A program made the position numbers and the translations under genes. Below the pieces are notes generated by a model. It searched no databases, had not been told where the DNA came from, and saw nothing but the letters and a program-made list of their open reading frames with translations. DNA of 39,252 nucleotides from a virus. The stretch is taken from UHGV virus genome UHGV-0390443. One strand, written 5' to 3'. Below are positions 4,087 to 31,304 of the stretch, piece after piece (positions within the stretch are counted from its first letter, which is position 1; each line of letters begins with the position of its first letter).

Positions 4087-4335
4087 ATGAAAGGTGCATT
4101 AGGTAAGAAGGAACTCCTGGCGGTGGTGCCACTGTCATGGAGCACTATCGACCGTATGGAGCGCGCAGGGGAATTTCCTAAACGCTGGTATATCACCGAT
4201 AAACGCTGCGCATGGAACCGTGATGAAGTTGAGCGTTGGCTTGATGAACGTCAGGCAGCAAGCCCGGCAGAGTTCCAGGGTAAAAAACCTCCTGTTCAGC
4301 AACGTGTATATCGTCCCGTGAGCAACGCGGCATGA
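4087..4335 (+). CDS. AlpA/Xis-like small DNA-binding protein
   Basis: 82 aa; ELLAVVPLSWSTIDRMERAGEFPKRWYITDKRCAWNRDEVERWLDE resembles AlpA-family HTH; RBS AGAGAGG upstream. Confidence 0.7.
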   Translation: MKGALGKKELLAVVPLSWSTIDRMERAGEFPKRWYITDKRCAWNRDEVERWLDERQAASPAEFQGKKPPVQQRVYRPVSNAA

Positions 4336-5581: not shown

Positions 5582-6832
5582 TTATTCCCCCGCCATCCAC
5601 TTCTCAAACTTCGACGGGGAGAACGGAATCAGATCCGTATGCTCCCCGTTAATCCAGGAATCAATCATATCGGCCCACTGCTGCAACATGTAGGCGCGCT
5701 GTCTGGCGTATTCCGCTTTGTTATATACGGCGCGCACACCTTTCTGCTCATGTGCCAGAGCCTTTTCAATCCAGTCTGAAGGATAACCAGCCTCATGCAA
5801 CAACGTACTGGCTGTACGGCGCATATCGTGTACGGTGAAGTCCTGAATATGCTCACCATCTTCATTTATTATTTTCACCGTTCTGTCGATCAGAGAGTTC
5901 AGCGCGGCATTAGATAATGGCTTCCGGAAATTGTAACGACCAGGAACCAGATATTCACTTCCACCAGCGCACATCTGCAACCCGACCAATATATCCTGTG
6001 CCTGTTTAGGCAGGTAAATAACGTGCGCCCGGCTTCCCTTCATACGGTCTGAAGGAATTGTCCATGTCCATTTTTTAAAATCTATTTCATCCCACGTTGC
6101 ATTGGTGAATTCGCCTTTACGAACCATAGTGATAAGCACCAGCTTTAAAGCCATTTTCATAGTGCCCATAGCGCCAATGGCATCCAACGTGCGGAAGAAC
6201 AGGCCAATTTCTTCTGGTGTCAGTGTTCGCTCTCGTGGTTTAAATATGGCGATAGACGAAGGTTTAATGTCAGCCGCAGGATTAAACAAACCATGACCAC
6301 GGTCATTGGCGTGACGGTATACGCTGCTGATGATCTCCCGGGCCTGCACTGCTGTTGCCCGGCCACCGCGTTCGACAATCCGGTCACACAAATCACGAAC
6401 CATCGATGTGGTAATTTCAGCCATCATTTTGTTGCCAAGAACCGGAAGTATGTCACGGTCGATCACCGCCTGCTTCATTGCGCGGGTACTTTCAGCCAGG
6501 ATGACGTGTTTCATATAACTGTCGGTATGTACCGCAAATGTCTCGGCACCACGAATCTTTTTGATACCGTCACGTTTAGCCGCAGCCGGCGACTGGCCTG
6601 CTTTAAGCAGCTTCTTTGCAGCAATCAGTTCTTCCCGCGCTTCTGCCAGGCTGATACCGTCACGCCCATACTGCCCGATTACCAGTGTTTCGCGGCGACC
6701 GTTGATACGGTAGTCATAGCGAAACGAGACCGTACCTGACGTAAGCACAGCTACATACAGCCCGTCACGATCGGAAACTTTGTACAGTTTGTCCTGTGGC
6801 TTGAGGTTCTTTAATTTTGTATCGGTAAGCAC
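5582..6832 (-). CDS. int: Tyrosine integrase (P4-like, with N-terminal arm-binding domain)
   Basis: 416 aa; N-terminus LTDTKLKNLKPQDKLYKVSDRDGLYVAV; C-terminal catalytic region HDMRRTASTLLHEAGY...RAVY; GTG start. Confidence 0.9.
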   Translation of the reverse strand: MLTDTKLKNLKPQDKLYKVSDRDGLYVAVLTSGTVSFRYDYRINGRRETLVIGQYGRDGISLAEAREELIAAKKLLKAGQSPAAAKRDGIKKIRGAETFAVHTDSYMKHVILAESTRAMKQAVIDRDILPVLGNKMMAEITTSMVRDLCDRIVERGGRATAVQAREIISSVYRHANDRGHGLFNPAADIKPSSIAIFKPRERTLTPEEIGLFFRTLDAIGAMGTMKMALKLVLITMVRKGEFTNATWDEIDFKKWTWTIPSDRMKGSRAHVIYLPKQAQDILVGLQMCAGGSEYLVPGRYNFRKPLSNAALNSLIDRTVKIINEDGEHIQDFTVHDMRRTASTLLHEAGYPSDWIEKALAHEQKGVRAVYNKAEYARQRAYMLQQWADMIDSWINGEHTDLIPFSPSKFEKWMAGE

Positions 6833-6860
6833 AATTCACCCGTATAGAAACCATTTTCAT

Positions 6861-6896
6861 GACGGTATGAGAGTATACCTTTAAGGTAATACCGTC
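6861..6896. promoter_or_regulatory. Int-proximal nested palindrome GACGGTAT...ATACCTTTAAGGTAA...ATACCGTC (contains an operator-family site at 6875..6889)
   Basis: 8-bp inverted repeat 6861..6868 / 6889..6896 enclosing a dyad site; immediately upstream of int start. Confidence 0.4.
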
Positions 6897-6954
6897 ACCT
6901 GTACCGCCGAAAAATATGGTGTAGAGTGAATAGAAATGAATACATAAAAACAAA

Positions 6955-6980
6955 AAACCCTCTGTAAAAACAGAGGGTTA
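6955..6980 (-). terminator. Rho-independent terminator ending the late operon (after spanin genes)
   Basis: Stem CCCTCTG/CAGAGGG with loop TAAAAA; minus-strand downstream tract TTTTTGTTTTT. Confidence 0.7.
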
Positions 6981-7150
6981 AATTAGTATCTGAATAGGAA
7001 TGAGTTGCTATGAGTTAGCTGTTAATCATTCCCACTCAATTATTTACGAAAACCATAACCAATTGACTGATAACAACTTTCCTCAACCTAATTTTCACCG
7101 TACCGTTTTATATACCGTCACCGGAAATCAGTACCATGAAAAATGCCATG

Positions 7151-7633
7151 CTATCTTGTCAGGGTGTCATACTGTTTTTCGCAGACTCTTCCGGCTGCGG
7201 CTGCCCGGTCAGCATACTCTGCCAGTTGTCTGTTTCTCTCGAGAGATTTGCTGAGCACGTCGGCAAGCAAAACTCCGGTGTCTGCGGCTGACGTCCCAGC
7301 GCCGACAATGGCGTTATACTGCCTGAGCTGCTCACGGATGGCAAAGAGTTGTTGCTGCAACCTGCCAGCGCGAGCGGCAGCATCAAGAGCATCATTGCGC
7401 GCCTGGTCGATCCTCTGCTGAGCTTCACGTTCATTGGCCACTTTCTCCTGTTCGTAGTACTGACGAACTTTGTCTTCTTCGGCTTTGCGGTCTTCTTCCG
7501 CCTGCGCATACCCGGCATCGTACTGGCGACTGCCGTGTATATTCCAGGCAACCACTCCGACGATGAACAGAGCAGCAAGCATCAACACAATAAGCATCTG
7601 TTTCCAATATGCTTTTACGAATGCCCAGATCAT
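7151..7633 (-). CDS. Rz-like inner-membrane spanin (i-spanin)
   Basis: 160 aa; N-terminal TM segment then charged coiled-coil region; last gene of lysis cassette. Confidence 0.7.
7159..7434 (-). CDS. Rz1-like outer-membrane lipoprotein spanin (o-spanin), embedded in the i-spanin gene in another frame
   Basis: Within ORF 7159..7578; start at internal Met giving [26 protein letters not shown] (signal peptide with lipobox LAGC), Pro-rich mature region. Confidence 0.6.
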   Translation of the reverse strand: MNVKLSRGSTRRAMMLLMLPLALAGCSNNSLPSVSSSGSITPLSALGRQPQTPEFCLPTCSANLSRETDNWQSMLTGQPQPEESAKNSMTP

Positions 7634-26856: not shown

Positions 26857-26907
26857 CTTCTTTCTCCATTAGTGGGTCTGTTACGACCCACAGGTTAATA
26901 ACAGGCG

Positions 26908-27900
26908 TTACACCACGCGGGCTTCTGTTTCCAGAAGCGCATCAGTTTCACGGATTGGTACACCACGGAATGAAGTCCACCACTCGCCTTCAGTCTCTTT
27001 TACGCTGATCGCCAGAGATGTTTTCTCCAGAGATTGCAGATCAAGAGCCTGGCCTACATTGCGGTTCATGTAGAACACCGGGCGACCCATTCCACGGTTT
27101 GGAATGCGATGCAGTGCTTTAACCATCAACTTCGCAATATTTGCGGCAGAGGAAGGTTCTGAAAGATTGCTGACATCGATGTTTGCAATGCGAACAACAT
27201 AACGCCAGTCACGCAGAGCAAGTCCGTTGTCCCATTTGTAATGGGTGCGATAGCCTTCGTACTTGCCGCCATTAGCATCTTCCAGTGTCACCTGGCCTTT
27301 ATCTTCCATCTGGATGCCAGCCTTCTGCCCTTTCGGGAAGATGCCATGCACGGTGTTTTCGCCCCACACCACTAACCAGATTGAGGTGTTATCTGTACCC
27401 GTGCCACCAGCATCAATGATGTTCTGAGCATTACCCGCAGACAGGCTGGAATAGCGGGAGGACAGTCCCATAAACTGCTGAGGGTTAACGCTGGAATCAC
27501 CATAAAACAACGTCTGCGCCATCTGCTGATTCATCGCTTCAATAAATGCGCGGTCTTCAGACAGGCGGAATTCGGCGGTATTACCGTTCAGATCAGCCAG
27601 TGACTTATCGACTTCAGCATAGGTTTCCAGCATTCCAACGGAATCGGTGACCTGCACTGTGGTTGATTTGCTTGGCTGTACGCCATAGTTCAGCAAACGC
27701 CAGGTGGCTGAAGGTAAACCAGAACGAATGGTGGTTCGGTGTCCGGTAGGAAGGTTCCCTTCGACAAAAGGCATATCCTGAAGGATCGGGTTAGTTTGAC
27801 CGAGAAGCTCGATAATCTTATCGACTTTCCCGTTTGGATCGACGCGCTTACCCCAGTCAGCCAGCGTTAGCGCAGTTAAGCCTTTAACAGCCATTGTCAT
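26908..27900 (-). CDS. Major capsid protein (HK97 fold)
   Basis: 330 aa, downstream of scaffold gene; size and position typical. Confidence 0.8.
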   Translation of the reverse strand: MTMAVKGLTALTLADWGKRVDPNGKVDKIIELLGQTNPILQDMPFVEGNLPTGHRTTIRSGLPSATWRLLNYGVQPSKSTTVQVTDSVGMLETYAEVDKSLADLNGNTAEFRLSEDRAFIEAMNQQMAQTLFYGDSSVNPQQFMGLSSRYSSLSAGNAQNIIDAGGTGTDNTSIWLVVWGENTVHGIFPKGQKAGIQMEDKGQVTLEDANGGKYEGYRTHYKWDNGLALRDWRYVVRIANIDVSNLSEPSSAANIAKLMVKALHRIPNRGMGRPVFYMNRNVGQALDLQSLEKTSLAISVKETEGEWWTSFRGVPIRETDALLETEARVV

Positions 27901-31227: not shown

Positions 31228-31304
31228 GTGGCATTAGCTCAGTTGGACAGAGCAACCGCCTTCTAAGCGGTTGGTCGCAGGTTCGAATCCTGCATGCCAC
31301 GCCA
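31228..31304 (+). tRNA. tRNA-Arg (anticodon UCU), with encoded CCA
   Basis: Manually folded cloverleaf: acceptor GTGGCAT/ATGCCAC, D-stem GCTC/GAGC, anticodon stem ACCGC/GCGGT with loop CTTCTAA, T-stem GCAGG/CCTGC with TTCGAAT loop. Confidence 0.85.

What the first reader, a model, noticed from the sequence alone, without database searches (positions are those of the whole stretch)
6861..6896. Nested palindromic locus immediately upstream of the integrase start: candidate attP arm/core element or int operator
An 8-bp inverted repeat (GACGGTAT / ATACCGTC) encloses a member of the operator dyad family (ATACCTTTAAGGTAA). It lies between the late-operon terminator and the int start. The attachment site could not be identified by inspection; the encoded tRNA-Arg is intact and 24 kb away, so it is unlikely to be the attP core.
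Basis: inference. Interest (0 to 1): 0.35.

Follow-up and report, generated by a model that had tools for sequence, protein, structure and literature searches.

The report
Integrase-binding arm sites flanking repressor operator
The palindrome is a real but fairly ordinary piece of a temperate phage's attachment site: two inverted integrase docking sites with a repressor-operator-like dyad between them, sitting just upstream of the integrase gene about 130-180 bp from the true crossover core, which lies in the end of the host guaA gene.

Summary
TGACGGTAT (6860-6868) and ATACCGTCA (6889-6897) form a perfect 9-bp inverted repeat around ATACCTTTAAGGTAA (6875-6889).

The window is a phiV10/epsilon15-type phage (Uetakevirus). 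Its attP core is not here. Prophage junctions, K-12 attB and published junction sequencing place it at 7024-7040 (AATCATTCCCACTCAAT), the 3' end of guaA.

The outer arms are copies of ATACCGTCAC, which clusters six times in 6311-7121 around int and the core. Int relatives across Proteobacteria keep the same motif and layout at fixed distances from the core (+128, +140, inverted +180). The integrase has an arm-binding domain. The arms are therefore Int arm-type sites of the int-proximal attP arm.

The inner dyad ranks tenth among the window's ten TTACC-N5-GGTAA sites, the family GenBank annotates as repressor sites in epsilon15. It occurs in this arm only in Uetakeviruses. It overlaps a weak promoter-like element: GTGACG, 15 bp, TATACT (TATAAT in epsilon15).

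The likely role is twofold: an intasome arm, and an int control region repressed by Int (as in KplE1 and P4) and by Rep. The regulatory part is inferred. The RNase III hairpin annotated in epsilon15 gets no covariation support. Novelty is low.

The parts
6860..6868 (-). Int arm-type site, inverted copy nearest the int start. Plus strand reads TGACGGTAT; in the int direction it reads ATACCGTCA. It is the left arm of the palindrome.
   Evidence: I12. It is the more variable arm among relatives. Distant Int relatives keep an inverted copy at core+180, against core+170 here.
6875..6889 (.). Dyad ATACC-TTTAA-GGTAA, a member of the TTACC-N5-GGTAA family of putative Rep operators. One outer flank is off consensus.
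   Evidence: 10 copies against 0.17 expected. It ranks 10th of about 39,000 positions with a matrix trained on 52 sites from five other genomes. The half-sites are invariant and the central 5 bp vary in 13 distinct relatives. The homologous family is annotated 'repressor' in epsilon15. A Rep homologue is encoded at 1149-1733.
6889..6898 (+). Int arm-type site ATACCGTCAC, exact consensus, right arm of the palindrome. In the int direction it reads GTGACGGTAT and also supplies the -35-like GTGACG.
   Evidence: Invariant in 13 distinct relatives. Sits at core+141, a distance conserved across Int relatives. The homologous 10-mer is annotated as an integrase binding site in epsilon15.
6901..6909 (+). 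Degenerate tandem arm-type copy GTACCGCCG, 12 bp from the strong site. Klebsiella relatives have a perfect TGACGGTAT here.
   Evidence: Read directly. Tandem sites at core+128 and core+140 are seen in distant relatives.
6872..6877 (-). -10-like hexamer TATACT (TATAAT in epsilon15). With GTGACG (6898-6893) at a 15-bp gap it is the best sigma-70-like candidate between the terminator and int. Putative int promoter.
   Evidence: The consensus scan found no promoter, so this part is inferred.
5582..6832 (-). Integrase gene (GTG start) with an N-terminal arm-binding domain.
   Evidence: Pfam PF13356, PF22022 and PF00589.
6956..6979 (-). Rho-independent terminator. It ends the lysis operon in the phage and guaA in the lysogen, and shields int from upstream transcription.
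   Evidence: Its stems are identical to the host guaA terminator.
7024..7040 (.). attP core AATCATTCCCACTCAAT, identical in attP, attB, attL and attR. It comprises the last 15 nt of guaA plus 2 nt.
   Evidence: Published as attgagtgggaatgatt (PMC9782041).
7112..7121 (+). Int arm-type site ATACCGTCAC in the other (lysis-side) attP arm, with a degenerate copy GTACCGTTT at 7100-7108.
   Evidence: The homologous site is annotated as an integrase binding site in epsilon15.
6564..6573 (+). Copy of the arm-type 10-mer inside the int coding region, encoding part of KRDGIK. Possible extra arm or autoregulatory site.
   Evidence: Annotated in epsilon15. The motif is kept in gammaproteobacterial relatives despite amino-acid changes around it.
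6654..6663 (+). Second copy of the arm-type 10-mer inside int (GRDGIS), 90 bp from the first.
6311..6320 (-). Third exact 10-mer copy inside int, in the opposite orientation. Not consistently conserved in relatives.

Best explanation
The locus is the promoter-proximal part of the int-side arm of attP in a guaA-integrating phiV10/epsilon15-type phage.

The two outer arms are inverted arm-type sites (consensus TGACGGTAT) for the N-terminal arm-binding domain of the P4-family integrase encoded immediately downstream. In the intasome, integrase molecules bound here would bridge to the core at 7024-7040, where strand exchange occurs.

Between the two sites this phage lineage carries one copy of the TTACC-N5-GGTAA dyad, which marks the phage repressor's (Rep) putative operators throughout the genome.

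A terminator lies just upstream, so int needs a promoter within about 120 bp of its start. The best candidate is GTGACG, 15 bp, TATACT, which lies exactly across these sites. The same DNA therefore most likely also controls int transcription. Int would repress its own promoter, as shown for KplE1 IntS and P4 Int. Rep bound to the dyad would keep int, and possibly arm occupancy at attL, down in the lysogen.

Shown here: the sequence elements, the position of the core, the motif clustering, the conserved geometry, and the family membership of the dyad. Inferred: actual binding by Int and Rep, the promoter, and the direction of regulation.
For: - The window is a Uetakevirus.
- The core lies at 7024-7040, from the break-points of about 570 E. 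coli prophage junctions, K-12 attB and a four-way alignment, and from published junction sequencing.
- The arm 10-mer clusters only around int and attP.
- Int carries Arm-DNA-bind_3 (E = 3.9e-20).
- In about 25 Int relatives from gamma-, beta- and alpha-proteobacteria, GACGGTA heptamers sit at core+128, core+140 and, inverted, core+180. Most heptamers in each 7-kb locus lie in the interval scanned around int (-450 to +1300 of its start), and many of them between the core and int.
- The epsilon15 GenBank record annotates the homologous 10-mers as integrase binding sites.
- The dyad family is far above chance (10 copies against 0.17). The site at 6876 ranks 10th with an independent matrix. Its half-sites are invariant and its centre is free in 13 relatives. 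It is present upstream of int in every Uetakevirus genome examined (L139 and L140, share the Uetakevirus gene order). It is absent from the equivalent spacer in relatives with more distant integrases.
- The Rep homologue matches PDB 5D50 (E = 4e-42).
- A terminator lies upstream.
- The best sigma-70-like candidate in the terminator-to-int interval uses the arm site as its -35, and the -10 is TATAAT in epsilon15.
- Precedent: int promoters overlapping attL are negatively autoregulated in KplE1 and P4 (PMC2951348).
Against: - No binding or transcription data exist for this locus.
- The consensus promoter scan finds nothing in 6600-7300.
- The candidate has a 15-bp spacer, and 99 position-and-spacer combinations on the two strands score as well or better. 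The arm motif resembles a -35 hexamer in any case, so that coincidence carries little weight.
- The dyad is the weakest of the ten and lacks one consensus flank.
- The epsilon15 annotators did not mark it as a repressor site; they marked the hairpin as an RNase III site.
- That TTACC-N5-GGTAA binds Rep rests on GenBank annotation and on its positions around rep. I could not read the experimental papers.
- Every relative with the short 29-bp arrangement has the same phage backbone, so the dyad and Rep could not be uncoupled.
Confidence: 0.7

Rival explanations
1. The palindrome acts as RNA. It would be a hairpin in the int mRNA leader that RNase III cuts to control Int synthesis, as annotated for the homologous 39 bp of epsilon15.
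For: The epsilon15 record marks 26874-26912 as 'RNaseIII, mRNA processing'. The minus-strand RNA 6955-6820 folds with the hairpin in its minimum-energy structure (-31.7 kcal/mol, z = -2.7).
Against: - The stem is only 9 + 4 bp, interrupted by an asymmetric bulge.
- Across 13 distinct sequences no pair shows a compensatory change. The upstream arm is invariant and all changes are in the other arm; four cells break pairing.
- Each arm is a motif that also occurs unpaired at 7112, 6564 and 6654.
- In distant relatives the spacer between the inverted sites changes completely in length and sequence while their distance to the core is kept.
- No Rfam family comes near its threshold.
- If int starts at the candidate promoter, its transcript would lack the upstream arm.
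Confidence: 0.1
2. The inner dyad is not a repressor site. It would be bound by another factor, such as the AlpA-family excision factor encoded at 4087-4335, or it is a decayed integrase site. Only the outer arms would matter.
For: Directionality factors usually bind between arm sites in att arms, and P4 Vis and KplE1 TorI act at the int promoter region. An AlpA-family ORF is present. In Klebsiella relatives the right half of the dyad reads TTACGGTAT, close to the arm motif.
Against: The same dyad recurs at nine other places, flanking rep, upstream of early and late operons and in 62-bp pairs. That distribution fits a global repressor, not a recombination factor. The half-sites TTACC and GGTA are invariant while the centre varies. 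The site scores with the family matrix.
Confidence: 0.1
3. It is a chance palindrome with no function of its own.
For: Perfect 8-bp inverted repeats with short loops are common in this genome (41 in the window).
Against: Both components belong to strongly over-represented motif families. The locus is conserved in prophages of at least ten enterobacterial genera. The inverted pair keeps a fixed distance to the core across classes of Proteobacteria.
Confidence: 0.03
4. It is the attP core, the crossover site.
For: None beyond its closeness to int.
Against: Homology between phage and prophage junctions switches at 7024-7040, and the palindrome stays wholly on the int side in about 570 lysogens. 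Published junction sequencing agrees.
Confidence: 0.01

Closest known systems
Epsilon15 and phiV10 attP region, as annotated in GenBank AY150271.2 and reported for vB_EcoP_ZX5 (PMC9782041)
   Same: It is the orthologous locus, about 83% identical to epsilon15 and 99% to phiV10 over the arm. It has the same guaA core, the same 10-mer annotated as integrase binding sites, and the same terminator and hairpin.
   Different: The epsilon15 record labels the hairpin an RNase III site. It does not mark the inverted arm copy or the inner dyad as protein sites. Here the comparative data favour DNA-level sites.
KplE1 (CPS-53) intS promoter overlapping attL, and P4 int regulated by Int and Vis
   Same: int is transcribed away from the core with its 5' end next to the att arm. 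Arm-type sites lie over the putative -35 and start region. RDF and int transcription are uncoupled, and an AlpA-family candidate RDF is encoded elsewhere.
   Different: The target is the 3' end of a protein gene (guaA), not a tRNA. Autoregulation is untested here. There is an extra repressor-type dyad between the arm sites.
Lambda attP arm-type sites (P1, P2, P'1-3)
   Same: An integrase with a separate arm-binding domain, and repeated arm motifs on both sides of a short core, about 80-180 bp away.
   Different: In lambda the 3' end of int faces attP and control is by sib retroregulation from PL and PI. Here the 5' end faces attP. The motif and integrase subfamily (P4-like, PF13356) also differ.
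SPC32H Rep/Ant immunity system (PDB 5D50) and the multi-site TTACC-N5-GGTAA dyads of Uetakeviruses
   Same: The window's Rep is a clear homologue. The dyads occupy the same genomic positions as in SPC32H and epsilon15, including 62-bp pairs.
   Different: The int-upstream copy is single, has one non-consensus flank, and is wedged between integrase sites. I could not read the papers that define Rep operators experimentally.

Membership tests
Arm-type integrase sites of an attP arm (heterobivalent tyrosine integrases) | The integrase has a separate N-terminal arm-binding domain. | tested here: met
   PF13356 Arm-DNA-bind_3, residues 2-87, E = 3.9e-20.
Arm-type integrase sites of an attP arm (heterobivalent tyrosine integrases) | A short motif unlike the core is repeated on both sides of the core within a few hundred bp. 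| tested here: met
   ATACCGTCAC at 6889 and 7112, inverted at 6860, plus copies at 6564, 6654 and 6311. 12 hits against 1.58 expected.
Arm-type integrase sites of an attP arm (heterobivalent tyrosine integrases) | Position relative to the crossover core is conserved along with the integrase family. | tested here: met
   Sites at core+128, core+140 and inverted core+180 in relatives from three proteobacterial classes; core+129 (degenerate), +141 and +170 here.
Arm-type integrase sites of an attP arm (heterobivalent tyrosine integrases) | Integrase binds directly and the sites are required for recombination. | not testable with these tools
   Needs footprinting and attP deletion assays.
attP core (crossover site) | The sequence is shared by attP, attB, attL and attR, and homology switches there. 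| tested here: not met
   The shared 17 bp are at 7024-7040. The palindrome lies 127 bp away, wholly on the phage side.
Uetakevirus Rep operator family (TTACC-N5-GGTAA) | The site matches the dyad consensus. | tested here: met
   Exact TACC-N5-GGTA. 18.9 bits, rank 10 in the window, with a matrix from 52 sites of other genomes. One flank is A instead of T.
Uetakevirus Rep operator family (TTACC-N5-GGTAA) | The cognate repressor is encoded by the phage. | tested here: met
   ORF 1149-1733 matches SPC32H Rep, PDB 5D50, E = 4e-42.
Uetakevirus Rep operator family (TTACC-N5-GGTAA) | The site overlaps a promoter that it could block. | tested here: inconclusive
   No consensus promoter. The weak candidate GTGACG-15-TATACT spans the dyad.
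Uetakevirus Rep operator family (TTACC-N5-GGTAA) | Rep binds the site. | not testable with these tools
   Only GenBank 'repressor' annotations of sister sites in epsilon15 were available. The primary papers are not held.
RNase III processing hairpin | A long, mostly continuous double-stranded RNA stem. | tested here: not met
   9 bp plus 4 bp, separated by an asymmetric bulge. The length requirement is from my own knowledge of RNase III substrates.
RNase III processing hairpin | Base pairing is maintained by compensatory changes. | tested here: not met
   0 of 13 pairs have changes on both sides, and one-sided changes include four breaks. Variation is low, so this is weak negative evidence.
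Self-repressed int promoter overlapping attL (KplE1/P4 type) | The 5' end of int faces the att arm, and int has no shared promoter with the RDF. | tested here: met
   The int start at 6832 is 192 bp from the core. A terminator lies upstream. The AlpA-like ORF is 2.5 kb away on the other strand.
Self-repressed int promoter overlapping attL (KplE1/P4 type) | Int lowers transcription from its own promoter. | not testable with these tools
   Needs reporter fusions with and without Int.

The most novel reading that the evidence does not exclude
In the Uetakevirus lineage, an ancestral spacer of about 40 bp between two inverted integrase arm sites was replaced by one about a helical turn shorter that carries an operator for the prophage master repressor. 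Immunity would then be wired directly into the recombination machinery. Rep bound inside the attL arm would shut the int promoter and also hinder integrase from assembling on the arm. The prophage would be locked in place until the antirepressor removes Rep.
Probability: 0.3. Interest if true: 0.5.

Novelty: new member of a known kind. Interest (0 to 1): 0.3.

Why it matters
This resolves the attachment site for the phage: the core lies in guaA and the arms are defined by a repeated integrase motif. It also shows that the 'palindrome' is two protein sites, not an RNA signal, and it corrects a database label in a reference genome (epsilon15).

The arm geometry is conserved from enterobacteria to alpha-proteobacteria. 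That gives a ready template for annotating attP arms in the many guaA-inserted elements; about 10% of complete E. coli genomes carry this one.

If the nested dyad really binds Rep, it would be a simple, testable case of a master repressor acting inside an att arm. That would be useful for understanding prophage stability and for engineering phiV10-type reporter phages.

Tried and rejected
- **Consensus promoter scan of 6600-7300.** No sigma-70 site found. My rough matrix scan gives only a weak candidate.
- **Rfam at permissive threshold.** Only chance-level hits, none near its gathering score.
- **RNA covariation test.** No compensatory changes.
- **Viral-contig search with Int.** It returned 80 loci with Int at least 99% identical, mostly cut at the int start, so it added no diversity.
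- **Search for a natural module swap** (same int and arm with a different immunity system), to test the dyad-Rep link. The lowest-identity E. coli prophages and all phage records examined are the same phage type, so the test could not be made.
- **Primary papers** on epsilon15 (Kropinski 2007) and SPC32H Rep (Kim and Ryu 2013; Kim et al. 2016) are not held. A full-text search for arm-type sites in int promoters found nothing.
- **tRNA-Arg as att site.** Rejected: it is intact and 24 kb away, and the junctions are at guaA.
- **A partner operator 62 bp away** for a Rep tetramer. None was seen by eye on either side of 6876.

Full report
**What is in the sequence**

The plus strand at 6860-6898 reads TGACGGTAT-gagagt-ATACCTTTAAGGTAA-TACCGTCAC. 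The repeat finder confirms a perfect 9-bp inverted repeat, 6860-6868 with 6889-6897, 20 nt apart (I12). The enclosed dyad occupies 6875-6889.

The integrase gene runs on the minus strand from a GTG at 6832 to 5582. A minus-strand terminator lies at 6979-6956.

A palindrome of this size is not unusual in itself. The window has 41 perfect 8-bp inverted repeats with 10-30 nt loops, against about 12.5 in shuffles. The case rests on what the parts are.

**Identity of the window and position of the attachment core**

The region is 95-97% identical to phiV10, vB_EcoP_ZX5 and the O157 typing phages, and 86% identical to Salmonella phage epsilon15. All are Uetakevirus.

About 570 of 5,426 complete E. 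coli genomes carry the int-side sequence. In the integrated copies homology stops at window position 7040, inside the last codons of guaA. The lysis-side homology starts at 7024.

I aligned attP with K-12 attB and both junctions. The shared core is the 17-bp AATCATTCCCACTCAAT at 7024-7040. The same sequence (attgagtgggaatgatt) was found by PCR and Sanger sequencing of attB, attL and attR for vB_EcoP_ZX5. That paper states it has been proven for phiV10 and epsilon15 (PMC9782041).

The core is thus known, and it lies 127 bp from the palindrome. The palindrome is not the core, and tRNA-Arg (31228-31304) plays no part.

**The outer arms are integrase arm-type sites**

- **Clustering.** The 10-mer ATACCGTCAC occurs exactly at 6311(-), 6564, 6654, 6889 and 7112, and with one mismatch at 6859(-), the palindrome's left arm. 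Five further 1-mismatch hits are scattered elsewhere in the window. In total there are 12 hits at up to 1 mismatch against 1.58 expected, and no shuffle reached 12. Copies lie on both sides of the core.
- **Tandem copies.** Each strong site has a degenerate copy 12 bp away: GTACCGCCG at 6901-6909 and GTACCGTTT at 7100-7108. Klebsiella relatives have a perfect copy at the first of these.
- **Existing annotation.** The epsilon15 GenBank record already annotates the homologous 10-mers as integrase binding sites.
- **Conserved geometry.** I collected 47 chromosomal loci encoding relatives of this integrase. Most of them, from Enterobacterales through Morganella, Edwardsiella, Oceanimonas and Tolumonas to beta- and alpha-proteobacteria, sit next to a guaA 3' end. 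They carry the heptamer GACGGTA at about 128 and 140 bp from the core in one orientation and at about 180 bp in the other, often with more copies toward int. In each locus most heptamers in 7 kb fall in the interval scanned around int (-450 to +1300 of its start), and many of them lie between the core and int.

In the window the corresponding positions are +129 (degenerate), +141 and +170.

**The inner dyad**

TACC-N5-GGTA occurs ten times in the window against 0.17 expected. The other nine copies all read tTACC-N5-GGTAa. They sit beside the repressor gene (1080, 1792, 1854) and in intergenic regions ahead of early and late operons, twice as pairs 62 bp apart.

Epsilon15 has the same family at the same relative places, annotated as repressor binding sites. 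SPC32H, TL-2011b, BUCT711, Tyrion and a Klebsiella prophage have 9-12 copies each, always including one upstream of int.

The window's ORF 1149-1733 is a homologue of the SPC32H repressor, whose structure is solved (5D50, E = 4e-42).

I built a matrix from 52 sites of five other genomes, leaving out their int-upstream copies. It ranks 6876 tenth in the window at 18.9 bits. The nine perfect sites score 20.5-26.3 and the next candidates 16.9 and below.

In 13 distinct sequences from ten or more enterobacterial genera, the half-sites TTACC and GGTA never change, while four of the five central bases vary. That is the pattern of a protein-bound dyad.

Relatives with more distant integrases have no such dyad. 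Their spacer between the inverted arm sites is about 10 bp longer and unrelated in sequence. The dyad is thus a lineage-specific insert into a conserved arm.

I could not uncouple it from the repressor. Every element with the short arrangement, including the most divergent E. coli prophages, has the same phage backbone.

**Does it control int?**

In the lysogen int lies directly behind guaA, and in the phage behind the lysis genes. The terminator at 6979-6956 should stop both, so int needs a promoter in 6955-6833.

The consensus scan found none. A rough position-weight scan gives GTGACG (6898-6893), a 15-bp gap, and TATACT (6877-6872) as the best candidate there. It is only in the 99.98th percentile, and 99 position-and-spacer combinations on the two strands score as well or better.

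The hexamer is TATAAT in epsilon15 and TATAnT in most relatives. In several gammaproteobacterial relatives the best candidate likewise uses an arm site (TTGACG) as its -35.

This layout would place the dyad across the spacer. One integrase site would cover the -35 and the other the start region. The same situation is shown experimentally for KplE1 intS, and reported for P4 int, where the integrase and the excision factor repress the int promoter that overlaps attL (PMC2951348). An AlpA-family ORF, a candidate excision factor, is at 4087-4335.

I regard regulation of int from this locus as likely but unproven. The arm motif looks like a -35 regardless, so that coincidence is weak evidence.

**The RNA alternative**

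The epsilon15 record labels the homologous 39 bp as an RNase III site. The RNA does fold with this hairpin (z = -2.7). However, the stem is 9 + 4 bp with a bulge.

No pair shows a compensatory change in 13 sequences. All variation is on one arm, and four cells are broken. Both arms also occur singly elsewhere, and no Rfam family matches. With so little variation this does not exclude an RNA role, but nothing supports one.

**Verdict**

The locus is part of the int-proximal arm of a known attP and is very probably also the int control region. It is not the core.

It is an ordinary element of a well-known kind, already partly annotated in a sister phage. The one point I have not seen described is the repressor-type dyad wedged between the integrase sites. 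I therefore rate interest as low to moderate.

Noticed in passing
window 6956-6979, compared with L005 (K-12) just downstream of guaA: The phage terminator has stems identical to the host guaA terminator: AACCCTCTGT/ACAGAGGGTT, with loop AAAA in the phage and AGTA in the host. After integration the phage copy ends guaA. The host copy is moved to the far junction, behind the lysis genes.
   Followed up: partly
window 6927-6939, 6991-7003 and 7026-7038: TGAATAG(A/G)AATGA occurs twice in the int-side arm, flanking the terminator. An inverted, related copy (TCATTCCCACTCA) lies inside the core (D6 and I7). Relatives also conserve ATCATnTCTATTCA. These may be core-type or accessory-protein sites.
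   Followed up: no
window 6564-6573, 6654-6663 and 6311-6320 (inside int): There are exact copies of the arm 10-mer inside the int coding region. The two that are 90 bp apart both encode RDGI. Gammaproteobacterial relatives keep TGACGGTA there even where neighbouring amino acids change. Relatives from other classes encode similar peptides with other codons. This suggests selection on the DNA.
   Followed up: partly
window 1792/1854 and 37915/37977; L004 (epsilon15) 32556/32618 and 35908/35970: Operator-type dyads come in pairs exactly 62 bp apart at two places in the genome, and likewise in epsilon15, SPC32H, TL-2011b, Tyrion, BUCT711 and the Klebsiella prophage. This fits a repressor that binds two dyads at once.
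   Followed up: no
window 4087-4335 (+): An 82-aa AlpA-family protein (PF05930, E = 3e-5) is encoded in the early operon. It is a candidate excision/directionality factor, transcribed separately from int.
   Followed up: partly
window 7060-7072 (minus strand): TATCAGTCAATTG matches the IHF consensus WATCAR-N4-TTR. It lies between the core and the lysis-side arm site, in the stretch where the epsilon15 record annotates IHF sites. This was read by eye only.
   Followed up: no
E. coli genome collection: 569 of 5,426 complete E. coli genomes carry this int-side att arm, in the records listed almost always next to guaA. A few copies lie elsewhere, for example beside bigA or on a 41-kb plasmid-sized replicon.
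   Followed up: no
window 7003-7020; L004 26753-26789: A second small palindrome (AGCTAACTCATAGC, int-sense) lies between the core and the terminator. It is conserved in enterobacterial relatives and is also labelled RNase III in epsilon15.
   Followed up: no
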